From an uncultured Gammaproteobacteria bacterium (GTDB taxonomy: Bacteria > Patescibacteriota > Patescibacteriia > UBA9934): a DNA stretch of 42,383 nucleotides. The notes under the pieces were generated by a model. It worked only from the letters and a program-made list of their open reading frames with translations. It was not told the DNA's origin and searched no databases. Numbering within the stretch: the stretch's first letter is position 1; each line of letters begins with the position of its first letter. Positions 30-7,779 of the stretch are shown piece by piece. Made by a program: the position numbers and the translations under genes. The stretch lies in the NCBI GenBank assembly GCA_964645815.1, contig CAZYCR010000002.1, positions 1 to 42,383 on the forward strand. Reading direction: 5' to 3'.

Positions 30-1481
30 ATGAAGTCTCTCTACATCACCACAGCCATTCCATACGTTAATGCCGAACCGCACATGGGTTTTGCTATGGA
101 ATTAATTCAAACTGATGCACTCGCCAGATACTGGCGTAATAAAATCGGACCAGATGATGTTCGTTTTCAAACCGGTTCAGATGAGAATAGTCTAAAAAAT
201 GTTCGCGCAGCTGCTGCAGCCGGTCAGGACGTGATGACTTTTGTAGAAAGTCTTGCGCAAAAATTTGCCGACCTCAAAGGCCTACTCGAACTATCCTACG
301 ATGATTTTATTCGAACCAGAGAAGACAGACATATTCGTGGCGCGCAAAAACTTTGGTCTGCTTGCCGACCGGAAGATATTTATAAAAAATCTTATAAAGG
401 TCTTTACTGCGTAGGCTGTGAGCAATTTTATACTGAGAAAGAATGTCCAGACGGTTTTTGTCCAGAACATAAAAAAGAGTTGGAAGTAGTTGAAGAAGAA
501 AATTATTTTTTCAAATTGTCGAATTACCAAAAGCAGTTGGAAGAATTAATCGAAAGTGATCAAATTAAAATCGTGCCAAAGGCTCGTAAGAATGAAATGC
601 TTAGTTTTATCAAAAGCGGTCTTGAGGATTTCTCAATTTCACGCTCTGTTGAACGAGCTGAACATTGGGGCGTACCGGTGCCGGGTGATCAGAGCCAAGT
701 GATGTATGTTTGGTTTGATGCACTTTCAAATTATATTAACGCCCTAGATTACGCCGACGAAGGAAAACTTTATAAGAAGTTTTGGAATAGTGAAGAAGTT
801 GATCGAGTTCATGTGATTGGTAAGGGAATTCTTCGTTTTCATGCGATTTATTGGCCGGCAATGCTTTTGTCTGCTGGCGTAAAATTACCAAATGAAATTT
901 TTGTTCATGGCTACGTCACTTCCGAAGGTGAGAAGATGTCCAAGTCAATCGGAAATGTTGTTTCACCAAAAGAACTTGTTGCCGAATACGGAGCAGAAGC
1001 AGTGCGGTATTATATTTTACGAGAAATTCCAGCGCATGGTGATGGAGATATTTCAAACAAGAGATTGGAGGAACGGTATGCTGAATTGGCCAACCAGCTC
1101 GGTAACTTGGTTAGCCGAGTGGCAGCAATGTCAGAGAAATATTTTAATGGCAAACTTGACCGTCCTGAACTCGACTGGGAAACACAGTACAATTTGCTTG
1201 ATTCGCATATCAAAAATTACGACTTCAAAGCATATCTGGATTTGGTTTTTGAAGTTGTGGCCAATGCCAATGAAATGACTGATAAAGAAGCGCCGTTCAA
1301 GCTGGTAAAAACTGATGAAGCCAGAGCAAAACAAGTTCTTTCTGAATTAGCAGAGATGATCAGGTTTGTTGGCAAGGCTTTATTACCAATGCTGCCACAA
1401 ACAGCAGAAGAAATTTTGCGTCGTTTTGAGGGAGATATTATTTTGAATGGTGAACCTTTATTTCCACGTCGTGATCAATAA
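30..1481 (+). CDS. metG: methionyl-tRNA synthetase (short form)
   Basis: 483-aa ORF with class I aaRS signatures: N-terminal PYVNAEPHMGF (HIGH-type), KMSKS (EKMSKSIGN), Zn knuckles CVGCEQF...CPDGFCPEH, and YVWFDALSNY. Confidence 0.95.
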   Translation: MKSLYITTAIPYVNAEPHMGFAMELIQTDALARYWRNKIGPDDVRFQTGSDENSLKNVRAAAAAGQDVMTFVESLAQKFADLKGLLELSYDDFIRTREDRHIRGAQKLWSACRPEDIYKKSYKGLYCVGCEQFYTEKECPDGFCPEHKKELEVVEEENYFFKLSNYQKQLEELIESDQIKIVPKARKNEMLSFIKSGLEDFSISRSVERAEHWGVPVPGDQSQVMYVWFDALSNYINALDYADEGKLYKKFWNSEEVDRVHVIGKGILRFHAIYWPAMLLSAGVKLPNEIFVHGYVTSEGEKMSKSIGNVVSPKELVAEYGAEAVRYYILREIPAHGDGDISNKRLEERYAELANQLGNLVSRVAAMSEKYFNGKLDRPELDWETQYNLLDSHIKNYDFKAYLDLVFEVVANANEMTDKEAPFKLVKTDEARAKQVLSELAEMIRFVGKALLPMLPQTAEEILRRFEGDIILNGEPLFPRRDQ

Positions 1482-1483
1482 TT

Positions 1484-2350
1484 ATGAATTTCGAACTTAT
1501 TGATTCACACTGTCACGTTCACTTCGAGGCCTACAAAAAAGACATGGACGAAGTTATCAAACGCAGCCTTGAAAACGGTGTGGCCATGATTACGATTGGT
1601 ACTCAATCAACAACCAGCGAAAATGCCATCAAAGTAGCAGAAAAATATGATGGTCTTTGGGCCACTATCGGGCTGCATCCAAATCATCTTCACGTTCAAG
1701 AATTTTACGACCAAGATGAGCTTCCGCCAGAAAAACAGGGAACTGAAAAAATTAAAACAAGAGCAGAGAAATTCGATGCTGACTTCTATCGAAACTTGGC
1801 CAATCATCCAAAAGTGGTAGGTATTGGTGAATTTGGTTTAGATTATTATCGACTTCCGCCAGGCGTTGATCGCGAACAAATGATCGCTGATCAGAAAGCG
1901 ACCTGTCTGGAACAACTCAAATTTGCTTCAACTGTTGAAAAACCGGTTATCATCCACTCACGTGATGCGTTCGACGATCAAATAGAGCTTATACGTCGAG
2001 AAATCGAACATGGCGGACTTAAATGTCGTGGAGTAATCCATTCATTCACCGGCTCAGCTAGGGAAGCAGCTGCATACGGTGAATTAGGTTTTTATATTGG
2101 GCTCAATGGCATTTTAACTTTTTCCAAAGATTTACAAAAAGAAGTTGCCTCAATTCCAATCGAACAAATCCTACTTGAAACCGACGCACCTTATTTATCT
2201 CCTCCACCACATCGAGGCGAACGTAATGAGCCCTGGTACGTGAAATTTGTTGCTGAAAAACTAGCAGAAGTTAAAGGTCTGAGCCTCGAAGAAATTAATA
2301 AAACAACGACTGAAAACACTTGTCGCCTTTTTGGTTTAAAATTATTATGA
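1484..2350 (+). CDS. tatD: TatD-family metal-dependent hydrolase/DNase
   Basis: 288-aa ORF. It starts LIDSHCHV and has further His/Asp metal-ligand motifs (IGEFGLDY, IHSRDA, ETDAPYL) typical of TatD. Confidence 0.85.
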   Translation: MNFELIDSHCHVHFEAYKKDMDEVIKRSLENGVAMITIGTQSTTSENAIKVAEKYDGLWATIGLHPNHLHVQEFYDQDELPPEKQGTEKIKTRAEKFDADFYRNLANHPKVVGIGEFGLDYYRLPPGVDREQMIADQKATCLEQLKFASTVEKPVIIHSRDAFDDQIELIRREIEHGGLKCRGVIHSFTGSAREAAAYGELGFYIGLNGILTFSKDLQKEVASIPIEQILLETDAPYLSPPPHRGERNEPWYVKFVAEKLAEVKGLSLEEINKTTTENTCRLFGLKLL

Positions 2351-3087
2351 CAAAAGACCCAAGCGTTCTTTATATTTCCACACGGCCCAAAACCTACTTC
2401 CAAGATCGTGGTTATGAAGAGCACTATCTTTGGCATGCGCGCGCATTGGGAATTGATCCGAATAAATTTCAGGTTTGCTATTTGCCAGATCAATCATTAC
2501 CGACCAAGGTTGACTCCGACCTGGTCATTATTGGTGGATCAAATAAGAGCGTTTATGACAATGAGCCGTGGATAAAACCACTGGAGCAGTTTATTGTTCG
2601 TCTGGTTGAAACTGAAAGGCCAATATTCGGTGTCTGCTTTGGCCATCAAATAATCGCACAAGCTTTGGGAGGAAAGGTTGAACCGGGTATTCTTGGTCCG
2701 GAAATCGGCTTAACAAAAGTTGAGTTATCTGAGTCTGGACGACGTGATCCGATATTTAAAAATCTCCCTTCTGTTTTTGAGGTTATGGAGTTACACAAAG
2801 ATGTGGTTGTTGAATTACCGCCTGTCGAAGTTGTTATGTTGGCCGCTAGTGATTTATATCCAAATCAAGCCCTGGCTTACGGAAATACTATCCGCACAGT
2901 ACAATTTCATCCTGAAATCACAGCTAAAATTATGGAAACAGAGGTACGGGAGCATTCTACCGAGATGCTGGAGTTGGGATATTTTGTAAATACCAAAGAA
3001 ATCGAACAGAAAATTGCCGGACTTCAAGAAAAAACATTTGAAACTGTAGCTGAGACGATTTACCGAAATTTTCTCAAATTTATTTAA
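2347..3087 (+). CDS. class I glutamine amidotransferase-like protein
   Basis: Nucleophile-elbow motif FGVCFGHQIIAQALGG and a later HPE motif (VQFHPE). ATG at 2347 overlaps the tatD stop (ATGA), so it is preferred over the 2320 start in the ORF track. Confidence 0.7.
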   Translation: MTKDPSVLYISTRPKTYFQDRGYEEHYLWHARALGIDPNKFQVCYLPDQSLPTKVDSDLVIIGGSNKSVYDNEPWIKPLEQFIVRLVETERPIFGVCFGHQIIAQALGGKVEPGILGPEIGLTKVELSESGRRDPIFKNLPSVFEVMELHKDVVVELPPVEVVMLAASDLYPNQALAYGNTIRTVQFHPEITAKIMETEVREHSTEMLELGYFVNTKEIEQKIAGLQEKTFETVAETIYRNFLKFI

Positions 3088-3101
3088 GTCTTATCTATAT
3101 C

Positions 3102-3130
3102 TTGACAAAAACGCGAAAATCTGCTAAATT
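3102..3130 (+). promoter_or_regulatory. sigma70-type promoter P1 (TTGACA-17 nt-TAAATT) for GC-rich gene 1
   Basis: TTGACA at 3102-3107, a 17-nt spacer, TAAATT at 3125-3130, about 55 nt upstream of the start codon. Confidence 0.6.
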
Positions 3131-3138
3131 TTCGCGTT
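3110..3138. promoter_or_regulatory. operator-like 11-bp inverted repeat overlapping the P1 spacer and -10
   Basis: AACGCGAAAAT (3110-3120) and ATTTTCGCGTT (3128-3138) are exact reverse complements, separated by 7 nt. Confidence 0.4.
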
Positions 3139-3185
3139 CTTCAAATTGAAGACAAGTTCCTTAACCAATTAGTATGGAGGCCGTG

Positions 3186-4220
3186 ATGGCCAGAAATGAT
3201 AACCCGGTGAAGCGCAGCATCTTCCTCACCCCGGTCGAGCTGGGCGTGTGGGAGAAGCTGATTGACGGTGACGAACACTTCGTCACCGACCTCAAGGGCA
3301 AGGGCAGGTTCGACCGTAAAGCGGTGTGCCGAGCTGTTGCTCGTTTCGCTGACGCGAAGCTGTGCCTGCTCGACGGTCCGTGCGAAAACGATGCTACGGT
3401 GGTGAAGCTCACGGTCGATCCGACTGACTTCTACGTCATCGACGTGATCGACGGAGAACGCCCCCTCGCCACGATCGAAGAAGCCTACCTCGATATCTTC
3501 CGGGCGGTCGAGATGAAGGCGGGGAAGACCGGCGATCCACCGGGATTCATTCCGACCAAGTCGGGCTTCCGTATGGAATTCCGCGAGTGGCTGAAAAACC
3601 TCAGGAGTGATCTCAACCCCGGAACGGTCGGCAACAAGGTCTTCAGCTACAGGTCATGCGCCGAGGGCCATGTGCCGGTGGACTCTTTTGGCATCGTCAT
3701 GGTGCTGAAGTATGTCACCTGCATCTGCTGGCCCGGCATGGAGCCGGTCGACTTCCAGCTTCGAGAGCGGCCTCCCAGGCGCTTTCCGAAGCGGGAGTAC
3801 AATGGGCGCAAGGTACCGCTGCGAGGTGGTGAGCAGCTGTTCGAGCTGCTCGGTAGCAGGGGAACGAGCGCCGGCGATCAACTGCCCGCCGTCGACCGCG
3901 CACCGGAGCCGCCGCCCGTCGTGAACGAGCCGGGGCAGTTCGAGACCTTCGAGCTGCCCATCTTCACGGCGGAGGGACTCAAGACCCTCCACGGCGACGA
4001 GCTCGGCCACTACGCGGCGCGTAACCTCGATGGTCGCCGTGTTCTCGAGGAGAACACAACACTCATGGAGGCCGAGCTGGAGCATCGGCGTTCCATGGTC
4101 GAGGAGCTAGACCGGCAGATCGAGGCTATCGGGAATAGCCTCACGGCGCTACAGGAGCAGATGCAGCTCCTTGCCACGCGGCTCAAGGAGATCCGGGAGG
4201 AACGCACGAAGCTCCTCTAG
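3186..4220 (+). CDS. GC-rich hypothetical protein A (paralog of 4348-5226) with C-terminal coiled coil
   Basis: Long ORF with G/C-dominated third codon positions. GGAGG at 3176-3180 lies 5 nt before ATG 3186; ATG 3174 is the alternative start. The C-terminus is heptad-like and Leu/Glu/Gln-rich. No known motif recognised. Confidence 0.7.
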   Translation: MARNDNPVKRSIFLTPVELGVWEKLIDGDEHFVTDLKGKGRFDRKAVCRAVARFADAKLCLLDGPCENDATVVKLTVDPTDFYVIDVIDGERPLATIEEAYLDIFRAVEMKAGKTGDPPGFIPTKSGFRMEFREWLKNLRSDLNPGTVGNKVFSYRSCAEGHVPVDSFGIVMVLKYVTCICWPGMEPVDFQLRERPPRRFPKREYNGRKVPLRGGEQLFELLGSRGTSAGDQLPAVDRAPEPPPVVNEPGQFETFELPIFTAEGLKTLHGDELGHYAARNLDGRRVLEENTTLMEAELEHRRSMVEELDRQIEAIGNSLTALQEQMQLLATRLKEIREERTKLL

Positions 4221-4231
4221 CTCTACGTATA

Positions 4232-4275
4232 GCCGGCCAATTCCCAGGGGGAGTTGGCCGGCGCAATCTTTATAT
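4232..4275 (+). terminator. GC hairpin downstream of gene A (weak T tract)
   Basis: GCCGGCCAA (4232-4240) pairs with TTGGCCGGC (4254-4262), followed by GCAATCTTTATAT. Confidence 0.45.
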
Positions 4276-4281
4276 AAATAC

Positions 4282-4310
4282 TTGACTTTTTTAGCGGATT
4301 CGACCATAAT
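4282..4310 (+). promoter_or_regulatory. sigma70-type promoter P2 (TTGACT-17 nt-CATAAT) for GC-rich gene 2
   Basis: TTGACT at 4282-4287, a 17-nt spacer, CATAAT at 4305-4310. Confidence 0.6.
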
Positions 4311-4347
4311 ATGCGGTCGCTTCTTTCACCAGCGACAGAGGTGTCAC

Positions 4348-5226
4348 GTGCCACACAAAAAAGTTATCAAGCCCAGGTATTTTGCCTTCATGACTCCCAG
4401 GGAGCGAAAGCTCTGGGAGCTGCTGCGCGAAGGCCAGAAGTTCGAGACGTCACCGTACCGCAAGCAGATCGAACGCTTCCGGGTCTTTGGTCTCTTGGGC
4501 AGGAGCGAGAAGATGAGTCTCAGGCTTCTCCTCAAGCCGGAGGAGCTCGAGATCTTCCCGATCGACAAGAGATTGGAACGCGAGATCGAAGCCGACTACT
4601 TCGCCATCATCAGCGCCATCGTGTCCGGCGAGTTCCACCATGAAGGCACCGGGTTGACCGCTTCCCTGATGAACTTCATCGGAGAGGTCGCACCCAGTCT
4701 CAACACTGTATCGACCTACCGCAAGATGATCGTCGCGTCGACCGAGAAGATCCGCCAGGGGAAGAAGCCGTTCGAGGTGATCACCTCTGACTCCTCCAAC
4801 GTTCAGCTCTGTTGGAGAGGCTTCACGCGCTACGAGTTCATCCCTGTCAACAAGCCGGTGCGCAAGTGGCGACACCGTCTCAACAAGCCCAAGCTTGAGA
4901 CAGGGGGAGAGACGTCAGAGAAGGAGATCGACCAGGTCGAAGAGGTCGTGCGGACTGCGAGCAACGAGGCCGACGAAACCAACCCGATCACCGATCTGCT
5001 CAAGAGCATCGAGCAGCGACCTCTCGAAGACCTCCTCCGGCTCGAGGCAGGGCTTCCCGGCGTGTTGGAGACTGTTCGACGTCTCGTCGAACAGCGACGG
5101 AACCAGCATATCCAGGAGCTCGAAGCGAAGCTTCTGGAGCTGCAGCAACAACAGAGGACGCTCGAACTCGAGCTCGATGCACTGCGTCAGACCCGTATCT
5201 TCCTGGTCGGTTCCGAAGTGGCCTGA
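4348..5226 (+). CDS. GC-rich hypothetical protein B (paralog of 3186-4220) with C-terminal coiled coil
   Basis: GTG at 4348 is preceded by GAGGTG (4338-4343). This start gives an N-terminus colinear with protein A (FMTPRERKLWELL vs FLTPVELGVWEKL). The 4171 start in the ORF track would run through the terminator and P2. Confidence 0.7.
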   Translation: MPHKKVIKPRYFAFMTPRERKLWELLREGQKFETSPYRKQIERFRVFGLLGRSEKMSLRLLLKPEELEIFPIDKRLEREIEADYFAIISAIVSGEFHHEGTGLTASLMNFIGEVAPSLNTVSTYRKMIVASTEKIRQGKKPFEVITSDSSNVQLCWRGFTRYEFIPVNKPVRKWRHRLNKPKLETGGETSEKEIDQVEEVVRTASNEADETNPITDLLKSIEQRPLEDLLRLEAGLPGVLETVRRLVEQRRNQHIQELEAKLLELQQQQRTLELELDALRQTRIFLVGSEVA

Positions 5227-5243
5227 CCAACAACCTTTCTCGA

Positions 5244-5288
5244 CCCGCCGGCAGGTGCCGACGGGTTTTCTTTTATTTTTTTTGACCA
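5244..5288 (+). terminator. rho-independent terminator
   Basis: Hairpin CCCGCCGGC-AGGT-GCCGACGGG (one mismatch), followed directly by TTTTCTTTTATTTTTTTT. Confidence 0.75.
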
Positions 5289-5344
5289 ACTGAAGTATCA
5301 AAAATCACAGAATCGACCTACGAAAAGTTGGAACGGATGAAAAA

Positions 5345-5557
5345 TTATAATTTTTCAATTTCTCTTAAATCCTTGTCCGGAAGGTAAAGGATAATTAAAC
5401 CAATAATAATCCCGCTCACAGCCGTATAAACATGACCACCGTCGAAAATCCATTTATCAATGCCGTCCAGAACATACCAAATGCCACGCCAAATTAACAC
5501 GAGACCGATAACGATGGATATATTCTTTGCGAGATATTTGAACGTAATTTTTTTCAT
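5345..5557 (-). CDS. small two-TM membrane protein, unknown function
   Basis: 70-aa ORF with host-like A+T-rich composition and two hydrophobic stretches. Confidence 0.55.
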   Translation of the reverse strand: MKKITFKYLAKNISIVIGLVLIWRGIWYVLDGIDKWIFDGGHVYTAVSGIIIGLIILYLPDKDLREIEKL

Positions 5558-5594
5558 ATACGAACGTCAGTTTTTAAAAAATAACTTTAATTTT

Positions 5595-6080
5595 TTATTT
5601 TTCTATTGTTTCAATATTTTGTGGCAAGTCATCAATAGTTACTTCTATCACCTCGATTGGCTCATTGGTTTCCGAACTTCGGCATTGCATGCCTTTAAAA
5701 TCTTGAAACTTCTGTTTGTCTAAGACATAGACTCTGCCGATTTTTGTCCTTGTTGCTTCAAGTATATTTTTTGTCGCTGAAAAATGTAGCTTATCGCCAT
5801 CTATTCCAAATTGACTTGTAGATTCTCCTTTTACACCCCTAGTATCTGTTAATGCTCTAAATATGGCTACATCGGCATATGGTGTGGCGAAGACCGCAGG
5901 TTCGCCGTCCTTTTCCATATTTCCAGTTTCTTTACTGCGGTTATACGCTTGTCGAGGTTCCAAAACTGTTATGGTATCCGGAGAACCGTGAAAAACATAT
6001 TTGCCCTCTTTTTCAAGTAACAAAAGTCTTTCTCTATTTTTTCCTTCATTTTCAATTATTGGTGGTTTCTCAAAATCCAT
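5595..6080 (-). CDS. hypothetical protein
   Basis: 161-aa ORF with host-like composition, upstream of and co-oriented with 5345-5557. No family recognised. Confidence 0.6.
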   Translation of the reverse strand: MDFEKPPIIENEGKNRERLLLLEKEGKYVFHGSPDTITVLEPRQAYNRSKETGNMEKDGEPAVFATPYADVAIFRALTDTRGVKGESTSQFGIDGDKLHFSATKNILEATRTKIGRVYVLDKQKFQDFKGMQCRSSETNEPIEVIEVTIDDLPQNIETIEK

Positions 6081-6273: not shown

Positions 6274-6300
6274 GCAAGAGACAAATTGTGCGGATAATTT
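6274..6300. repeat. perfect 27-bp inverted repeat, left arm (GCAAGAGACAAATTGTGCGGATAATTT)
   Basis: Exact reverse complement at 6734-6760. Confidence 0.95.
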
Positions 6301-6333
6301 CATTATTCAAAGGGCATTTTTTGTTTTTTCGCC

Positions 6334-6362
6334 TTGACAGAATAGATGATCTATGTCTAAAT
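6334..6362 (+). promoter_or_regulatory. sigma70-type promoter P3 (TTGACA-17 nt-CTAAAT)
   Basis: TTGACA at 6334-6339, a 17-nt spacer containing the palindrome ATAGAT-G-ATCTAT, then CTAAAT at 6357-6362. Confidence 0.5.
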
Positions 6363-6393
6363 GATAGCACCTCGAACCTTAAGGGGGTACATT

Positions 6394-6636
6394 ATGGAGT
6401 ACGTGAAAAGCGAGATTGAGATGGCGGTGCGCGGTATCCTGTCGGCTTCGGTCAGTGAGGTAGATGCGAGACGGTCGTTGCTGATCATGCACGGCCAGCA
6501 CCTGCCCCGTGGTGTGAGCTTTCTTGGCTCGCTCTCTGTCGTCTTCGGCAGCACGGGGCGTCGGGCCCACTTCAGCCTCGCTCGCGGTGGCGACGACCTC
6601 ATGCCGATGGAGATTAGCGTCGAAGTCATGGAATGA
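6394..6636 (+). CDS. GC-rich small hypothetical protein (80 aa)
   Basis: AAGGGGG (6381-6387) lies 6 nt before ATG 6394, and third codon positions are G/C-rich. The call is short, and several overlapping ORFs exist on both strands, so it stays tentative. Confidence 0.5.
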   Translation: MEYVKSEIEMAVRGILSASVSEVDARRSLLIMHGQHLPRGVSFLGSLSVVFGSTGRRAHFSLARGGDDLMPMEISVEVME

Positions 6637-6658
6637 ACCGAGCCATCTCGATCGACCT

Positions 6659-6692
6659 GCGCCGGTGATATCCTTCGGGATTGATCCGGCGC
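6659..6692 (+). other. GC hairpin capped by a C(UUCG)G tetraloop, downstream of the small ORF
   Basis: GCGCCGG (6659-6665) pairs with CCGGCGC (6686-6692). The inner stem ATCC/GGAT closes a TTCG loop. No T tract follows on the + strand. Confidence 0.5.
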
Positions 6693-6733
6693 AAGCTCCC
6701 ACTTCAAGAAAAAAAAGTCCAATCAAAAATGAA

Positions 6734-6760
6734 AAATTATCCGCACAATTTGTCTCTTGC
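6734..6760. repeat. perfect 27-bp inverted repeat, right arm
   Basis: AAATTATCCGCACAATTTGTCTCTTGC is the reverse complement of 6274-6300. Confidence 0.95.
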
Positions 6761-6987: not shown

Positions 6988-7728
6988 TCAAAACTTTTTT
7001 AAATCCTTTCTATAAGTCACGCCACGACCTATTTCAAATAATTCTTTTCTGCTGGATGTAGGCATCAGGGTTTCCATAAATATATGACTGGCGTGAATAT
7101 CCTTTACTTCATGAGTCAAAACGACATCACAAATGTGACCCTTGCAACGATTGGGTATGAAGGCAACAAGATAAGATTGTTTTTTATCAAAATACCTTGA
7201 ATCTTCAATAAACTCCGTATATTCACGGGCGCAGGCGTTGTCTATTTTTTTTGTCGATGCACGCAATATCTTTTCTGAAAAGTATAGACAGTCAGATCGG
7301 CCATCTTTACCGTGGTCATGACGCAAAATATCGGCTTCTGAAAAACCATGTTTATTGAAAATCTTTTTATATTCATCAGGTAAAGATGCATCTTCACCGC
7401 TTCGAAGACTGTATAAAGTATCACGTCGTTTACTTCGCTCTCGTGGGTGAAGTTCGCTCATTTCCTCATGAGCATGGTCATCGACAAAAAAAATAAATTC
7501 CACTTTTTTTCCACATTTAACCGCATACTCACCAACCTCACACGCTAATTCTAGGGTATATGGCGAAAAATGCCCCCAATACGAAATGCCCTCTAATGCG
7601 ATATCATTATCTTTTGAGTAAAAAAGTGGAAAGTGACCTCCGAGAAAAACAATCTTATCTTGTTGACTGGTTTTGACATCGTTCTTTAATATTTTTAGCA
7701 AGTCGCTTTGACTCTGTATTTTTTCCAT
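6988..7728 (-). CDS. hypothetical protein
   Basis: 246-aa ORF with host-like composition. No family recognised. Confidence 0.65.
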   Translation of the reverse strand: MEKIQSQSDLLKILKNDVKTSQQDKIVFLGGHFPLFYSKDNDIALEGISYWGHFSPYTLELACEVGEYAVKCGKKVEFIFFVDDHAHEEMSELHPRERSKRRDTLYSLRSGEDASLPDEYKKIFNKHGFSEADILRHDHGKDGRSDCLYFSEKILRASTKKIDNACAREYTEFIEDSRYFDKKQSYLVAFIPNRCKGHICDVVLTHEVKDIHASHIFMETLMPTSSRKELFEIGRGVTYRKDLKKF

Positions 7729-7779
7729 ATTTTGTGATTAAAAAAGTTTTAAAAAATTTCAAATTTCTTTTTCTCCTTA

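What the first reader, a model, noticed from the sequence alone, without database searches (positions are those of the whole stretch)
3102..5288. Tandem pair of divergent GC-rich paralogs with C-terminal coiled coils, each an independent transcription unit
Proteins A (3186-4220) and B (4348-5226) are colinear, distant paralogs:
- FLTPVELGVWEKL vs FMTPRERKLWELL near the N-terminus.
- DFYVIDVIDGE vs DYFAIISAIVSGE.
- CICWPGMEPVDF..RPPRRFPKR vs QLCWRGFTRYEF..KPVRKWRHR.
- Both end in a Leu/Glu/Gln-rich heptad-like segment (EELDRQIEAIGNSLTALQEQMQLLATRLKEI vs IQELEAKLLELQQQQRTLELELDALRQ).

Each gene has its own promoter, SD and GC hairpin terminator instead of forming an operon. I recognise no catalytic or DNA-binding motif. 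A duplicated coiled-coil protein of foreign composition, sitting in the accessory gap between core genes, is the best candidate in this window for an undescribed functional module.
Basis: partly seen in the sequence, partly recalled or inferred. Interest (0 to 1): 0.75.

Follow-up and report, generated by a model that had tools for sequence, protein, structure and literature searches.

The report
Orphan GC-rich coiled-coil paralog pair
Two neighbouring genes in a small, low-GC Patescibacteria genome are real, ancient paralogs of a protein family found almost nowhere else; their function is unknown, and they lie in a chromosomal slot that holds unusually GC-rich genes in many related genomes.

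Summary
ORF A (3186-4220) and ORF B (4348-5226) are intact genes with 62% and 58% GC (GC3 0.80 and 0.78) in a 40% GC Patescibacteria contig where host GC3 is about 0.31. Each has a sigma-70-like promoter, a Shine-Dalgarno sequence and a GC-rich hairpin after the stop codon.

The direct A-B similarity is marginal (E about 1e-3). A third member, E, in a related MAG links both (p about 1e-8 to 1e-9). E sits in the same place, downstream of metG-tatD.

The family has no other relatives. Searches of 5.8 billion clusters and 1.84 billion representatives found none. Pfam, PHROGs, NCBIfam, PADLOC, PDB sequences, phages, plasmids, viral contigs and metagenome contigs also gave nothing.

The architecture has three parts:
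- an N-terminal alpha/beta region of about 200 aa, fold unresolved;
- an acidic, Pro-rich linker;
- a C-terminal long helix with a leucine-zipper heptad run.

The function is unknown. My best guess, with low confidence, is an oligomeric and possibly DNA-binding accessory factor.

The wider surprise is the tatD-to-atp-operon slot. It holds a GC-rich island in 21 of 40 related genomes. The commonest occupant there looks vertically inherited, yet it has not drifted to host composition.

The parts
3102..3130 (+). Promoter-like site of A: TTGACA, 17 nt, TAAATT, with TG before the -10 (extended -10)
   Evidence: 10 of 12 matches. The same CTTGACA plus TGnTAnnnT layout lies upstream of E and D, and C has a near-variant.
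3107..3152 (.). Two operator-like inverted repeats over and just after the -10 of A: AAAAACGCGAAAAT/ATTTTCGCGTTCTT (3107-3141) and the perfect 15-bp palindrome TCTTCAAATTGAAGA (3138-3152)
   Evidence: (I7). E has a perfect 15-bp palindrome, TGTTGAAATTCAACA, at the equivalent place (L002:11838-11852). The function is inferred, not shown.
3176..3180 (+). Shine-Dalgarno GGAGG, 5 nt before ATG 3186
   Evidence: Read directly from the sequence.
3186..4220 (+). ORF A, 344 aa (protein P0001)
   Evidence: GC3 0.80. It is the only member of its cluster and the only hit in 5.8e9 clusters and 1.84e9 representatives.
3186..3800 (+). A N-terminal alpha/beta region (aa 1-205). It carries the family-conserved positions P16, E18, W22, E23, R53, F54, C181, W182, G184 and F190.
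   Evidence: Alignments A1 and A9. Secondary-structure order is H-H-H-beta-beta twice, but pLDDT is below 50.
3801..3968 (+). A linker (aa 206-261): Pro-rich, acidic, predicted disordered
   Evidence: pLDDT 22-36, no secondary structure; 8 Pro, pI 4.6.
3969..4217 (+). A C-terminal long helix (aa 262-343). The leucine-zipper heptads are aa 305-339 (nt 4098-4202).
   Evidence: pLDDT 86-95 over about aa 285-343; 10 of 10 a/d positions hydrophobic; 0 of 300 shuffles.
4232..4262 (+). GC-rich hairpin after A: 14-bp perfect stem, 3-nt loop, weak U tract
   Evidence: -29.1 kcal/mol, z = -4.86; I10.
4282..4310 (+). Promoter-like site of B: TTGACT, 17 nt, CATAAT
   Evidence: 10 of 12 matches.
4314..4341 (+). 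Inverted repeat in the 5' leader of B: CGGTCGCT (4314-4321) and AGCGACAG (4331-4338). The 3' arm overlaps the Shine-Dalgarno AGAGG (4337-4341).
   Evidence: Read directly from the sequence. Any role is inferred.
4348..5226 (+). ORF B, 292 aa from GTG 4348 (alternative ATG 4390). It is absent from the protein collection.
   Evidence: (GC3 0.78).
4348..4887 (+). B N-terminal alpha/beta region (aa 1-180), basic (pI 10, net +13)
5101..5205 (+). B C-terminal heptad coiled coil (aa 252-286)
   Evidence: 8 of 10 a/d positions hydrophobic; 0 of 300 shuffles.
5242..5283 (+). Intrinsic-terminator-like hairpin after B (5242-5267) followed by a U run
   Evidence: -17.1 kcal/mol, z = -2.1.

Best explanation
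**Shown.** A and B are genuine protein-coding genes. They are anciently diverged paralogs of an orphan family known so far only from two related Patescibacteria genomes. The full members are A, B and E. A fourth protein, F, shares only the C-terminal module.

Each gene is a self-contained unit:
- an AT-rich, host-type promoter;
- a Shine-Dalgarno sequence;
- a GC-rich ORF;
- a GC-rich hairpin.

The genes lie in a hypervariable slot between metG-tatD and the atp operon.

**Inferred.**
- The proteins are cytoplasmic. I saw no signal peptide or membrane segment on reading the sequences.
- They dimerise or oligomerise through the C-terminal leucine-zipper helix.
- A flexible acidic linker joins that helix to an N-terminal alpha/beta region of about 200 aa, which does the specific work.

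**Most likely function (low confidence).** The N-terminal region binds DNA or another nucleic acid and regulates accessory-gene expression, including its own. The secondary-structure order looks like two helix-helix-helix-hairpin (winged-helix-like) units, and perfect palindromes sit just after the -10 of both A and E.

**Composition.** The GC excess is not the mark of a very recent import. It is either maintained in place or renewed from an unsampled high-GC gene pool.
For: - **Coding and intact:**
- **Paralogy through E:**
- **Same slot in a relative:** E lies about 1 kb downstream of tatD in L002, where MetRS is 73% and TatD 67% identical to the window's proteins.
- **Shared C-terminal module with F** (L002:44-2107).
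- **Coiled coil:**
- **Disordered acidic linker:**
- **Secondary-structure order H-H-H-beta-beta twice** in both the A and the B models.
- **Promoters, Shine-Dalgarno sequences and hairpins:**
- **Palindromes after the -10 of A and E:**. About one such palindrome occurs per 2 kb in the window.
- **B's N-terminal region is strongly basic** (pI 10).
- **Slot variability and GC islands:**
- **Long-lived GC3 excess in the slot's other family:**
Against: **Against DNA binding.**
- No HTH or winged-helix profile matches, even at E <= 10 on isolated segments.
- No PDB sequence match.
- Both AlphaFold models have pLDDT about 45 over the N-terminal region, so the winged-helix reading rests on secondary-structure order alone.
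- Foldseek on the poor model is uninformative.
- The N-terminal regions of A (neutral) and E (net -8) are not basic.
- The palindrome argument is post hoc. No extra copies of the A palindrome occur beyond chance.

**Other limits.**
- There are no expression data.
- The family has only three full members, so conservation statistics are thin.
Confidence: 0.4

Rival explanations
1. Recent horizontal acquisition. A and B are cargo newly imported from a high-GC donor, such as a host bacterium of this presumed episymbiont or that host's phage or plasmid. They have no adapted role in the recipient.
For: - GC3 is 0.78-0.80 against 0.31 in the host. G+C at four-fold sites is 74-78% against 27-36%. There are no TTA codons.
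- The amino-acid composition is also shifted toward GC-rich codons (GC1 and GC2 are raised).
- The slot is hypervariable.
- Two other GC-rich single-gene units lie on the same contig (C and D).
Against: - No homolog exists in 1.84e9 representatives or 5.8e9 clusters covering sequenced high-GC taxa. None exists in phages or plasmids.
- The only relatives are in another Patescibacteria genome, at the same slot.
- The promoters are AT-rich and of the same type as those of other genes here.
- The GC step coincides exactly with the ORF borders.
- No integrase, tRNA or direct repeats lie at the borders.
- Family X in the same slot keeps its GC3 excess while co-diverging with core genes.
Confidence: 0.2
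2. A and B are not DNA-binding. They are fast-evolving scaffold, adaptor or effector-type proteins involved in conflict or interaction, for example symbiont-host contact or phage defence and counter-defence. A variable N-terminal recognition domain would hang on a shared C-terminal oligomerisation or targeting module.
For: - Divergence is extreme. A, B and E are about 21-29% identical, depending on the alignment, while the flanking TatD is 67% identical.
- Net charge of the N-terminal region varies widely among members: +13, 0 and -8.
- The C-terminal module is shared with protein F, which has a different N-terminus.
- The genes lie in a hypervariable island, the usual home of conflict genes.
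Against: - No PADLOC, PHROG or Pfam match.
- No signal peptide or secretion-associated neighbours were seen.
- No neighbouring enzyme or toxin genes were identified.
- The idea is not directly testable with these tools.
Confidence: 0.25
3. A and B are non-functional: spurious long ORFs in GC-rich DNA, or decaying pseudogenes.
For: - GC-rich DNA gives long ORFs in several frames. Antisense ORFs of 128-143 aa overlap A and B.
- B is not in the protein collection, so it was apparently not called as a gene.
- The family is tiny.
Against: - Only the A and B frames show the coding pattern GC3 > GC1 > GC2. The antisense ORFs do not.
- Protein-level similarity to E in another genome is significant in this frame.
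- Tryptophan, cysteine and glycine positions are conserved.
- Each ORF has an intact Shine-Dalgarno sequence, start codon, promoter and hairpin.
- The heptad register is perfect.
Confidence: 0.05

Closest known systems
Winged-helix / HTH transcription regulators that dimerise through a helical extension (for example the MarR and PadR classes)
   Same: Possible three-helix-plus-hairpin units in the N-terminal region, a dimerising helix, and palindromes at the gene's own promoter. These are inferred.
   Different: There is no profile match to any HTH family. There are two putative units plus a 50-aa disordered linker and a terminal leucine zipper. The N-terminal regions of A and E are not basic. 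Membership is not established.
Iteron-plasmid initiators with tandem winged-helix domains (RepA/RepE/pi, Pfam Rep_3) and KfrA-type plasmid proteins (N-terminal DNA-binding domain plus coiled-coil tail). The resemblance is from my own knowledge.
   Same: The overall layout is a DNA-binding-like globular head plus a coiled-coil or leucine-zipper oligomerisation element. The genes are accessory and possibly mobile.
   Different: There is no Rep_3 or KfrA_N match. No iterons or direct-repeat arrays lie nearby. There are no plasmid hits by tblastn. The coiled coil is short, about 35-80 aa, unlike the long KfrA tail.
lgr 'large GC-rich genes' of Protochlamydia amoebophila (PMC2216083, listed)
   Same: A paralogous gene family whose members are conspicuously GC-rich inside an AT-rich genome of a host-dependent bacterium.
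   Different: By that paper's title and abstract, the lgr genes are about 5.6 kb and encode leucine-rich-repeat proteins. A and B are about 1 kb with no repeats and no sequence relationship. This is an analogy of composition only.
Integron gene cassettes
   Same: Compact single-gene units, each ending in a strong hairpin, stacked in a variable region.
   Different: Each unit here has its own promoter. The hairpins are perfect stems without the attC R''/R' core: the sequence reads GTTGGCC where the consensus is GTTRRRY (read). No integrase was found among the ORFs scanned.
Classical horizontally acquired genomic islands with orphan genes
   Same: Atypical composition, patchy presence at a fixed chromosomal site between conserved genes, and genes without known function.
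   Different: There are no integrase, tRNA or repeat borders for A and B. The compositional step is gene-by-gene rather than island-wide. AT-rich orphan genes (5345-6080, 6988-8730) lie in the same gap. In relatives, the GC excess of the slot's occupants persists through core-genome divergence.

Membership tests
HTH / winged-helix DNA-binding regulators | Significant match to an HTH-clan sequence profile | tested here: not met
   Pfam on the full proteins and on nine isolated segments at E <= 10 gave no HTH family. NCBIfam gave none.
HTH / winged-helix DNA-binding regulators | Three-helix bundle followed by a beta-hairpin wing in a confident structure | tested here: inconclusive
   The secondary-structure order H-H-H-beta-beta appears twice in the A and B models, but pLDDT is below 50. 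Foldseek found no match with E <= 0.001.
HTH / winged-helix DNA-binding regulators | Sequence-specific DNA binding, typically to a palindrome at the regulated promoter | not testable with these tools
   Perfect 15-bp palindromes lie after the -10 of A and of E. They are suggestive only, and no further copies occur beyond chance.
Iteron-plasmid Rep (Rep_3) initiators | Rep_3 profile match, with iterons next to the gene | tested here: not met
   No Pfam hit. No direct-repeat array in 2900-5500. No plasmid tblastn hit.
KfrA-like plasmid proteins | KfrA_N DNA-binding domain, with a coiled-coil tail making up most of the protein | tested here: not met
   No Pfam hit. The helix covers only about 80 of 344 aa in A.
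Leucine-zipper coiled coil (structural class) | At least four contiguous heptads with hydrophobic a/d positions in a continuous helix | tested here: met
   A 305-339 has 10 of 10 and B 252-286 has 8 of 10. None of 300 shuffles reaches these values. The A helix has pLDDT 86-95.
Integron gene cassette | Promoterless ORF followed by an attC site with R''/R' cores, with IntI nearby | tested here: not met
   Each gene has its own promoter-like site. The hairpin is a perfect stem without the GTTRRRY core. No integrase was found among the ORFs scanned. Not every ORF of the window was scanned.
Recently acquired genomic island | Atypical base composition | tested here: met
   GC3 is 0.78-0.80 against 0.31. 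G+C at four-fold sites is 74-78% against 27-36%.
Recently acquired genomic island | Mobility hallmarks at the borders (integrase, tRNA, direct repeats) and an identifiable donor lineage | tested here: not met
   No tRNA lies near 3-5 kb. There are no flanking repeats. No integrase was found. No homolog exists outside Patescibacteria.
Known anti-phage defence systems (PADLOC) | Match to a defence-protein model | tested here: not met
   One search gave only a 10-bit coiled-coil hit to LmuB, E = 0.05.

The most novel reading that the evidence does not exclude
The tatD-to-atp-operon slot of a whole Patescibacteria clade could be a dedicated site for stand-alone gene units, each with its own promoter and hairpin, whose GC content is actively kept far above the host's. 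Candidate forces are biased gene conversion, selection on the mRNA or DNA, or constant re-supply from an unsampled high-GC gene pool. A, B and E on one hand, and the unrelated X/Y genes on the other, would be alternative occupants of this compositionally insulated accessory compartment. A and B would be its oligomeric DNA-binding factors.
Probability: 0.2. Interest if true: 0.75.

Novelty: new variant of a known kind. Interest (0 to 1): 0.5.

Why it matters
Taken alone, A and B are a new orphan protein family with a simple, testable architecture: a globular head, a flexible linker and a leucine zipper. They occur in a lineage, Patescibacteria, where much of the proteome still lacks a known function.

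The larger point is compositional. Genes with GC3 of 0.74-0.97 sit at one fixed chromosomal slot in many genomes whose own GC3 is 0.3-0.7. In closely related genome pairs, the commonest occupant diverges together with the core genes. Foreign genes are normally expected to drift to host composition. If the excess is really maintained, it offers a natural system for asking what holds base composition in bacteria: biased gene conversion, selection or gene flow. It would also warn against reading every GC island as recent transfer.

Tried and rejected
- **Homolog searches.** A alone, B alone and the A/B/E profile found nothing except A itself and one low-complexity hit (P0003). B is not even in the collection. 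The exact-protein contig look-up for A failed.
- **Family libraries.** Pfam, PHROGs, NCBIfam and PADLOC gave only sub-threshold coiled-coil noise. PDB sequence searches with the full and the N-terminal profiles gave noise only.
- **Mobile-element origin.** tblastn against phages and plasmids gave no match. Viral-contig scans with the profile and with E found none. A metagenome pattern scan found none.
- **Structure.** Two AlphaFold jobs could use only A and B as the alignment. The N-terminal region stayed at pLDDT about 45. Foldseek on that model was meaningless.
- **Relationship to the slot's other GC-rich families.** hhalign of A1 against family X (2 and 16 sequences) and against family Y gave probability <= 0.2%, so this was rejected. 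jackhmmer and HMM searches over six-frame ORFs of 86 loci added only F, through the C-terminal module.
- **Structured RNA instead of genes.** Rfam found nothing in the GC islands. The codon-position GC pattern supports coding.
- **Integron cassettes.** Rejected because of the genes' own promoters and the absence of attC cores.
- **Assembly chimera.** Rejected. The GC steps coincide with ORF borders in three separate units on this contig, and similar islands recur in many independent assemblies.
- **LuxR/GerE-type reading of the 'LTPxE..L' motif.** No profile support.
- **Extra binding sites for the A palindrome.** None beyond chance.
- **Correlation of X with core-gene identity over all pairs.** Uninformative. 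Only the close pairs were informative.
- **Viral-contig scan with the X alignment.** It could not be run because the alignment has no conserved stretch.
Full report
**What the window is.** The 42,383-bp window is a complete NCBI contig. It has about 40% GC and carries ordinary chromosomal genes:
- metG, tatD and a class-I glutamine amidotransferase at 30-3087;
- an F-type ATP synthase operon from about 9.06 kb;
- an AddA-like helicase-nuclease, PBP2, GltX, ClpB and an M23 peptidase.

The closest genomes found are Patescibacteria MAGs, one of them labelled Candidatus Uhrbacteria.

**Checking the observation.**
- ORF A (3186-4220, 344 aa) and ORF B (4348-5226, 292 aa) are intact.
- The region 3.2-5.25 kb has 58-69% GC, and the steps up and down coincide with the ORF borders.
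- The A and B frames have the codon-position pattern of real genes from a GC-rich background. GC1/2/3 is 0.66/0.41/0.80 for A and 0.60/0.37/0.78 for B. Host genes have GC3 of 0.28-0.35. The overlapping antisense ORFs lack this pattern.
- G+C at four-fold degenerate sites is 78% (A) and 74% (B), against 27-36% in host genes. A and B use no TTA leucine codons.

**Paralogy.**
- BLASTP aligns A and B over 193 residues at 21% identity, E = 0.001. Smith-Waterman against 1000 shuffles gives p about 1e-3. Alone, this is borderline.
- The decisive evidence came from synteny. I anchored on TatD in GTDB species representatives. That search found locus L002 (JBDRFP010000006.1), where MetRS is 73% and TatD 67% identical to the window's proteins.
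- About 1 kb downstream of tatD in L002 lies a third ORF, E (L002:11880-12773). It runs off the contig end.
- E matches A at p about 4e-9 and B at p about 2e-8.
- jackhmmer started from any one of the three recovers the other two.
- Alignment A1 has invariant P16, E18, W22, E23, R53, F54, C181, W182, G184 and F190.
The pair DFYVIDVIDGE / DYFAIISAIVSGE is out of register.
- A, B and E are about equally distant from one another. The A/B split is therefore old, not a recent tandem duplication.

**Orphan status.**
- A finds only itself among 5.8 billion clusters.
- An exhaustive phmmer run over 1.84 billion representatives also finds only A, apart from a low-complexity hit to a 2485-aa protein.
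- B finds nothing, and B itself is not in the collection.
- The A/B/E profile adds nothing.
- Pfam, PHROGs, NCBIfam, PADLOC and PDB sequences give no credible hit.
- Phages, plasmids, viral contigs and a metagenome pattern scan give none either.
- An HMM search over six-frame ORFs of 86 related loci adds only F (L002:44-2107, more than 687 aa). F shares the C-terminal linker-plus-helix module (domain E = 3e-5) but has a different, repetitive N-terminus.

**Architecture.**
- AlphaFold could be given only A and B as the alignment. It leaves the N-terminal 200 aa or so at pLDDT about 45.
- It places the same order of elements in both proteins: helix-helix(-helix)-strand(s), then helix-helix-helix-strands.
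- Residues 206-261 of A are predicted disordered. That segment is Pro-rich and acidic.
- A 262-343 is a single helix, with pLDDT 86-95 over its last 60 residues or so.
- Heptad analysis gives 10 of 10 hydrophobic a/d positions in A 305-339 and 8 of 10 in B 252-286. None of 300 shuffles reaches these values.
- The coiled-coil claim is therefore confirmed, while the fold of the head is unresolved.
- The 'two winged-helix-like units' reading is my inference from secondary-structure order and from motifs such as LTPxExxxWExL followed by RF...L.G. No profile supports it.
- B's head is basic (pI 10), but A's is neutral and E's is acidic.

**Expression signals.**
- Both genes have good sigma-70-type sites: TTGACA-17-TAAATT at 3102-3130 and TTGACT-17-CATAAT at 4282-4310.
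- Both have Shine-Dalgarno sequences at the right distance.
- The promoters of A, E and D share CTTGACA and an extended -10 (TGnTAnnnT). C has the same -35 and a near-variant of the -10.
- A is followed by a 14-bp perfect hairpin (-29 kcal/mol, z = -4.9) with a poor U tract. B is followed by a hairpin plus a U run.
- Perfect 15-bp palindromes lie just after the -10 of A (TCTTCAAATTGAAGA, 3138-3152) and of E (TGTTGAAATTCAACA). Such palindromes occur about once per 2 kb in the window. This fits autoregulation, but the argument is post hoc.

**Genomic context: a hypervariable slot.**
- I fetched 80 more TatD loci from metagenomes. Of 40 loci where the whole tatD-to-atpB interval is present, 21 contain a GC island at least 12 points above the flanking core genes.
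- Slots with an island have a median length of 3.3 kb. Slots without one have a median of 0.84 kb.
- The window's slot is the longest, at 6.9 kb. It mixes GC-rich units (A, B, C) with AT-rich orphan ORFs (5345-6080, 6988-8730). None of these has a homolog in the other loci.
- The usual occupant elsewhere is an unrelated family, X, of about 480-650 aa (for example L005:12228-13826). It often comes with a second family, Y.
- Neither X nor Y is related to A/B/E by profile-profile comparison. X has no Pfam or PDB match, and a Y representative has no Pfam match.

**Composition is long-lived.**
- X has GC3 of 0.74-0.97 wherever it occurs, against 0.36-0.72 for the adjacent metG, tatD and atpB.
- In closely related genome pairs X diverges together with the core genes, only faster: 90% against 89%, 72% against 82-85%, and 56% against 80%.
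- That pattern looks like vertical inheritance without amelioration.
- By analogy, and because E sits in the same slot of a diverged relative with GC3 0.73 against host 0.45, the GC excess of A and B is unlikely to mark a very recent import.
- What maintains it is unexplained.

**Mechanism.** I commit to the following, with stated uncertainty.
- A and B are expressed, cytoplasmic proteins that dimerise or oligomerise through a C-terminal leucine zipper. This part is well supported.
- The head of about 200 aa, held on a flexible acidic linker, most likely binds nucleic acid and regulates accessory genes, including its own. This is an inference at about 25-30%.
- A non-DNA-binding adaptor or effector role in some conflict or interaction is about equally possible.
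- Simple recent transfer with no adapted role is less likely.
- Non-functionality is unlikely.

**Comparison with known systems.** The layout recalls winged-helix regulators, tandem-winged-helix plasmid initiators and KfrA-type proteins (from my own knowledge). Every membership test that could be run failed or was inconclusive (see the table). The stacked single-gene units recall integron cassettes, but they have promoters and lack attC cores. The nearest published analogy for GC-rich paralogs in an AT-rich, host-dependent bacterium is the lgr family of Protochlamydia (PMC2216083), which is unrelated in sequence.

**Verdict.**
- The family is new at the sequence level.
- The function is unknown.
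- As a pair of orphan genes, the interest is moderate.
- The persistent GC-rich slot raises the interest, because a specialist would not expect it and it is directly testable with population data.

Noticed in passing
Loci L004, L005, L026-L029, L031, L033-L035, L038-L040, L046, L051-L055, L058, L060-L062, L066, L068, L075 (slot downstream of tatD); for example L005:12228-13826: An unrelated, uncharacterised family X of about 480-650 aa occupies the tatD-to-atpB slot in many Patescibacteria. A second family, Y, often accompanies it. X has GC3 of 0.74-0.97 against 0.36-0.72 in the flanking core genes. It co-diverges with the core genes in close genome pairs. It has no Pfam or PDB match.
   Followed up: partly
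window 6274-6760: A perfect 27-nt inverted repeat (6274-6300 / 6734-6760) brackets a third GC-rich unit. This unit is an 80-aa ORF, C (6394-6636, GC3 0.75), with its own TTGACA promoter and a GC hairpin. It looks like a small cassette bounded by terminal inverted repeats. The repeat is absent from the 86 related loci.
   Followed up: partly
window 39267-39934 (- strand): A fourth GC-rich unit, ORF D (39267-39821, GC3 about 0.90), is lipoprotein-like. It has the lipobox LVALTGC and a 21-nt tandem repeat inside the signal-peptide region (about 39745-39800). It has a TTGACA-17-TATTAT promoter (39906-39934) and a 14-bp hairpin. It lies directly after tRNA-Ala.
   Followed up: partly
window 38912-39093: Two tandem 91-nt repeats (99% identical) lie immediately upstream of tRNA-Ala(GGC) (39095-39171). 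Each begins with the first 12 nt of the tRNA. Each folds into a 9-bp closing stem with three arms (-38.7 kcal/mol, z = -3.5). Neither ARAGORN nor Rfam calls them.
   Followed up: partly
window 6981-7002/7738-7759 and 7746-7781/8753-8788: AT-rich inverted repeats bracket each of the two AT-rich orphan ORFs of the slot (6988-7728 and 7780-8730). They may be shared bidirectional terminator or promoter regions, or cassette borders.
   Followed up: no
L002:44-2107: Protein F (more than 687 aa, GC-enriched, cut by the locus edge) carries the same C-terminal acidic linker plus coiled-coil module as A, B and E. Its N-terminal part has several repeats of a 'TPxE...L ... G(Y/V)L' unit.
   Followed up: partly
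L002:11643-11754: Three perfect palindromes lie in a row just upstream of E's promoter: GCGACCTAAAGGTCGC, ACGGTCTGAAGACCGT and a hairpin with arms of about 16 bp. The 1 kb between tatD and E is GC-rich, contains a promoter-like site (TTGACA... at about 11187) and has no Rfam match.
   Followed up: no
window 3138-5091: Five of the window's roughly 22 perfect palindromes (arms of at least 7 bp) fall inside the 2-kb A/B island. Four of them lie inside the coding sequences: 3269-3285, 4040-4056, 4774-4787 and 5075-5091.
   Followed up: no
window 16254-16347 (- strand): ARAGORN calls a 94-nt tRNA-Asn with the unusual anticodon ATT. Rfam scores it only 41.5 bits. It may be an intron-containing or mis-called tRNA.
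   Followed up: no
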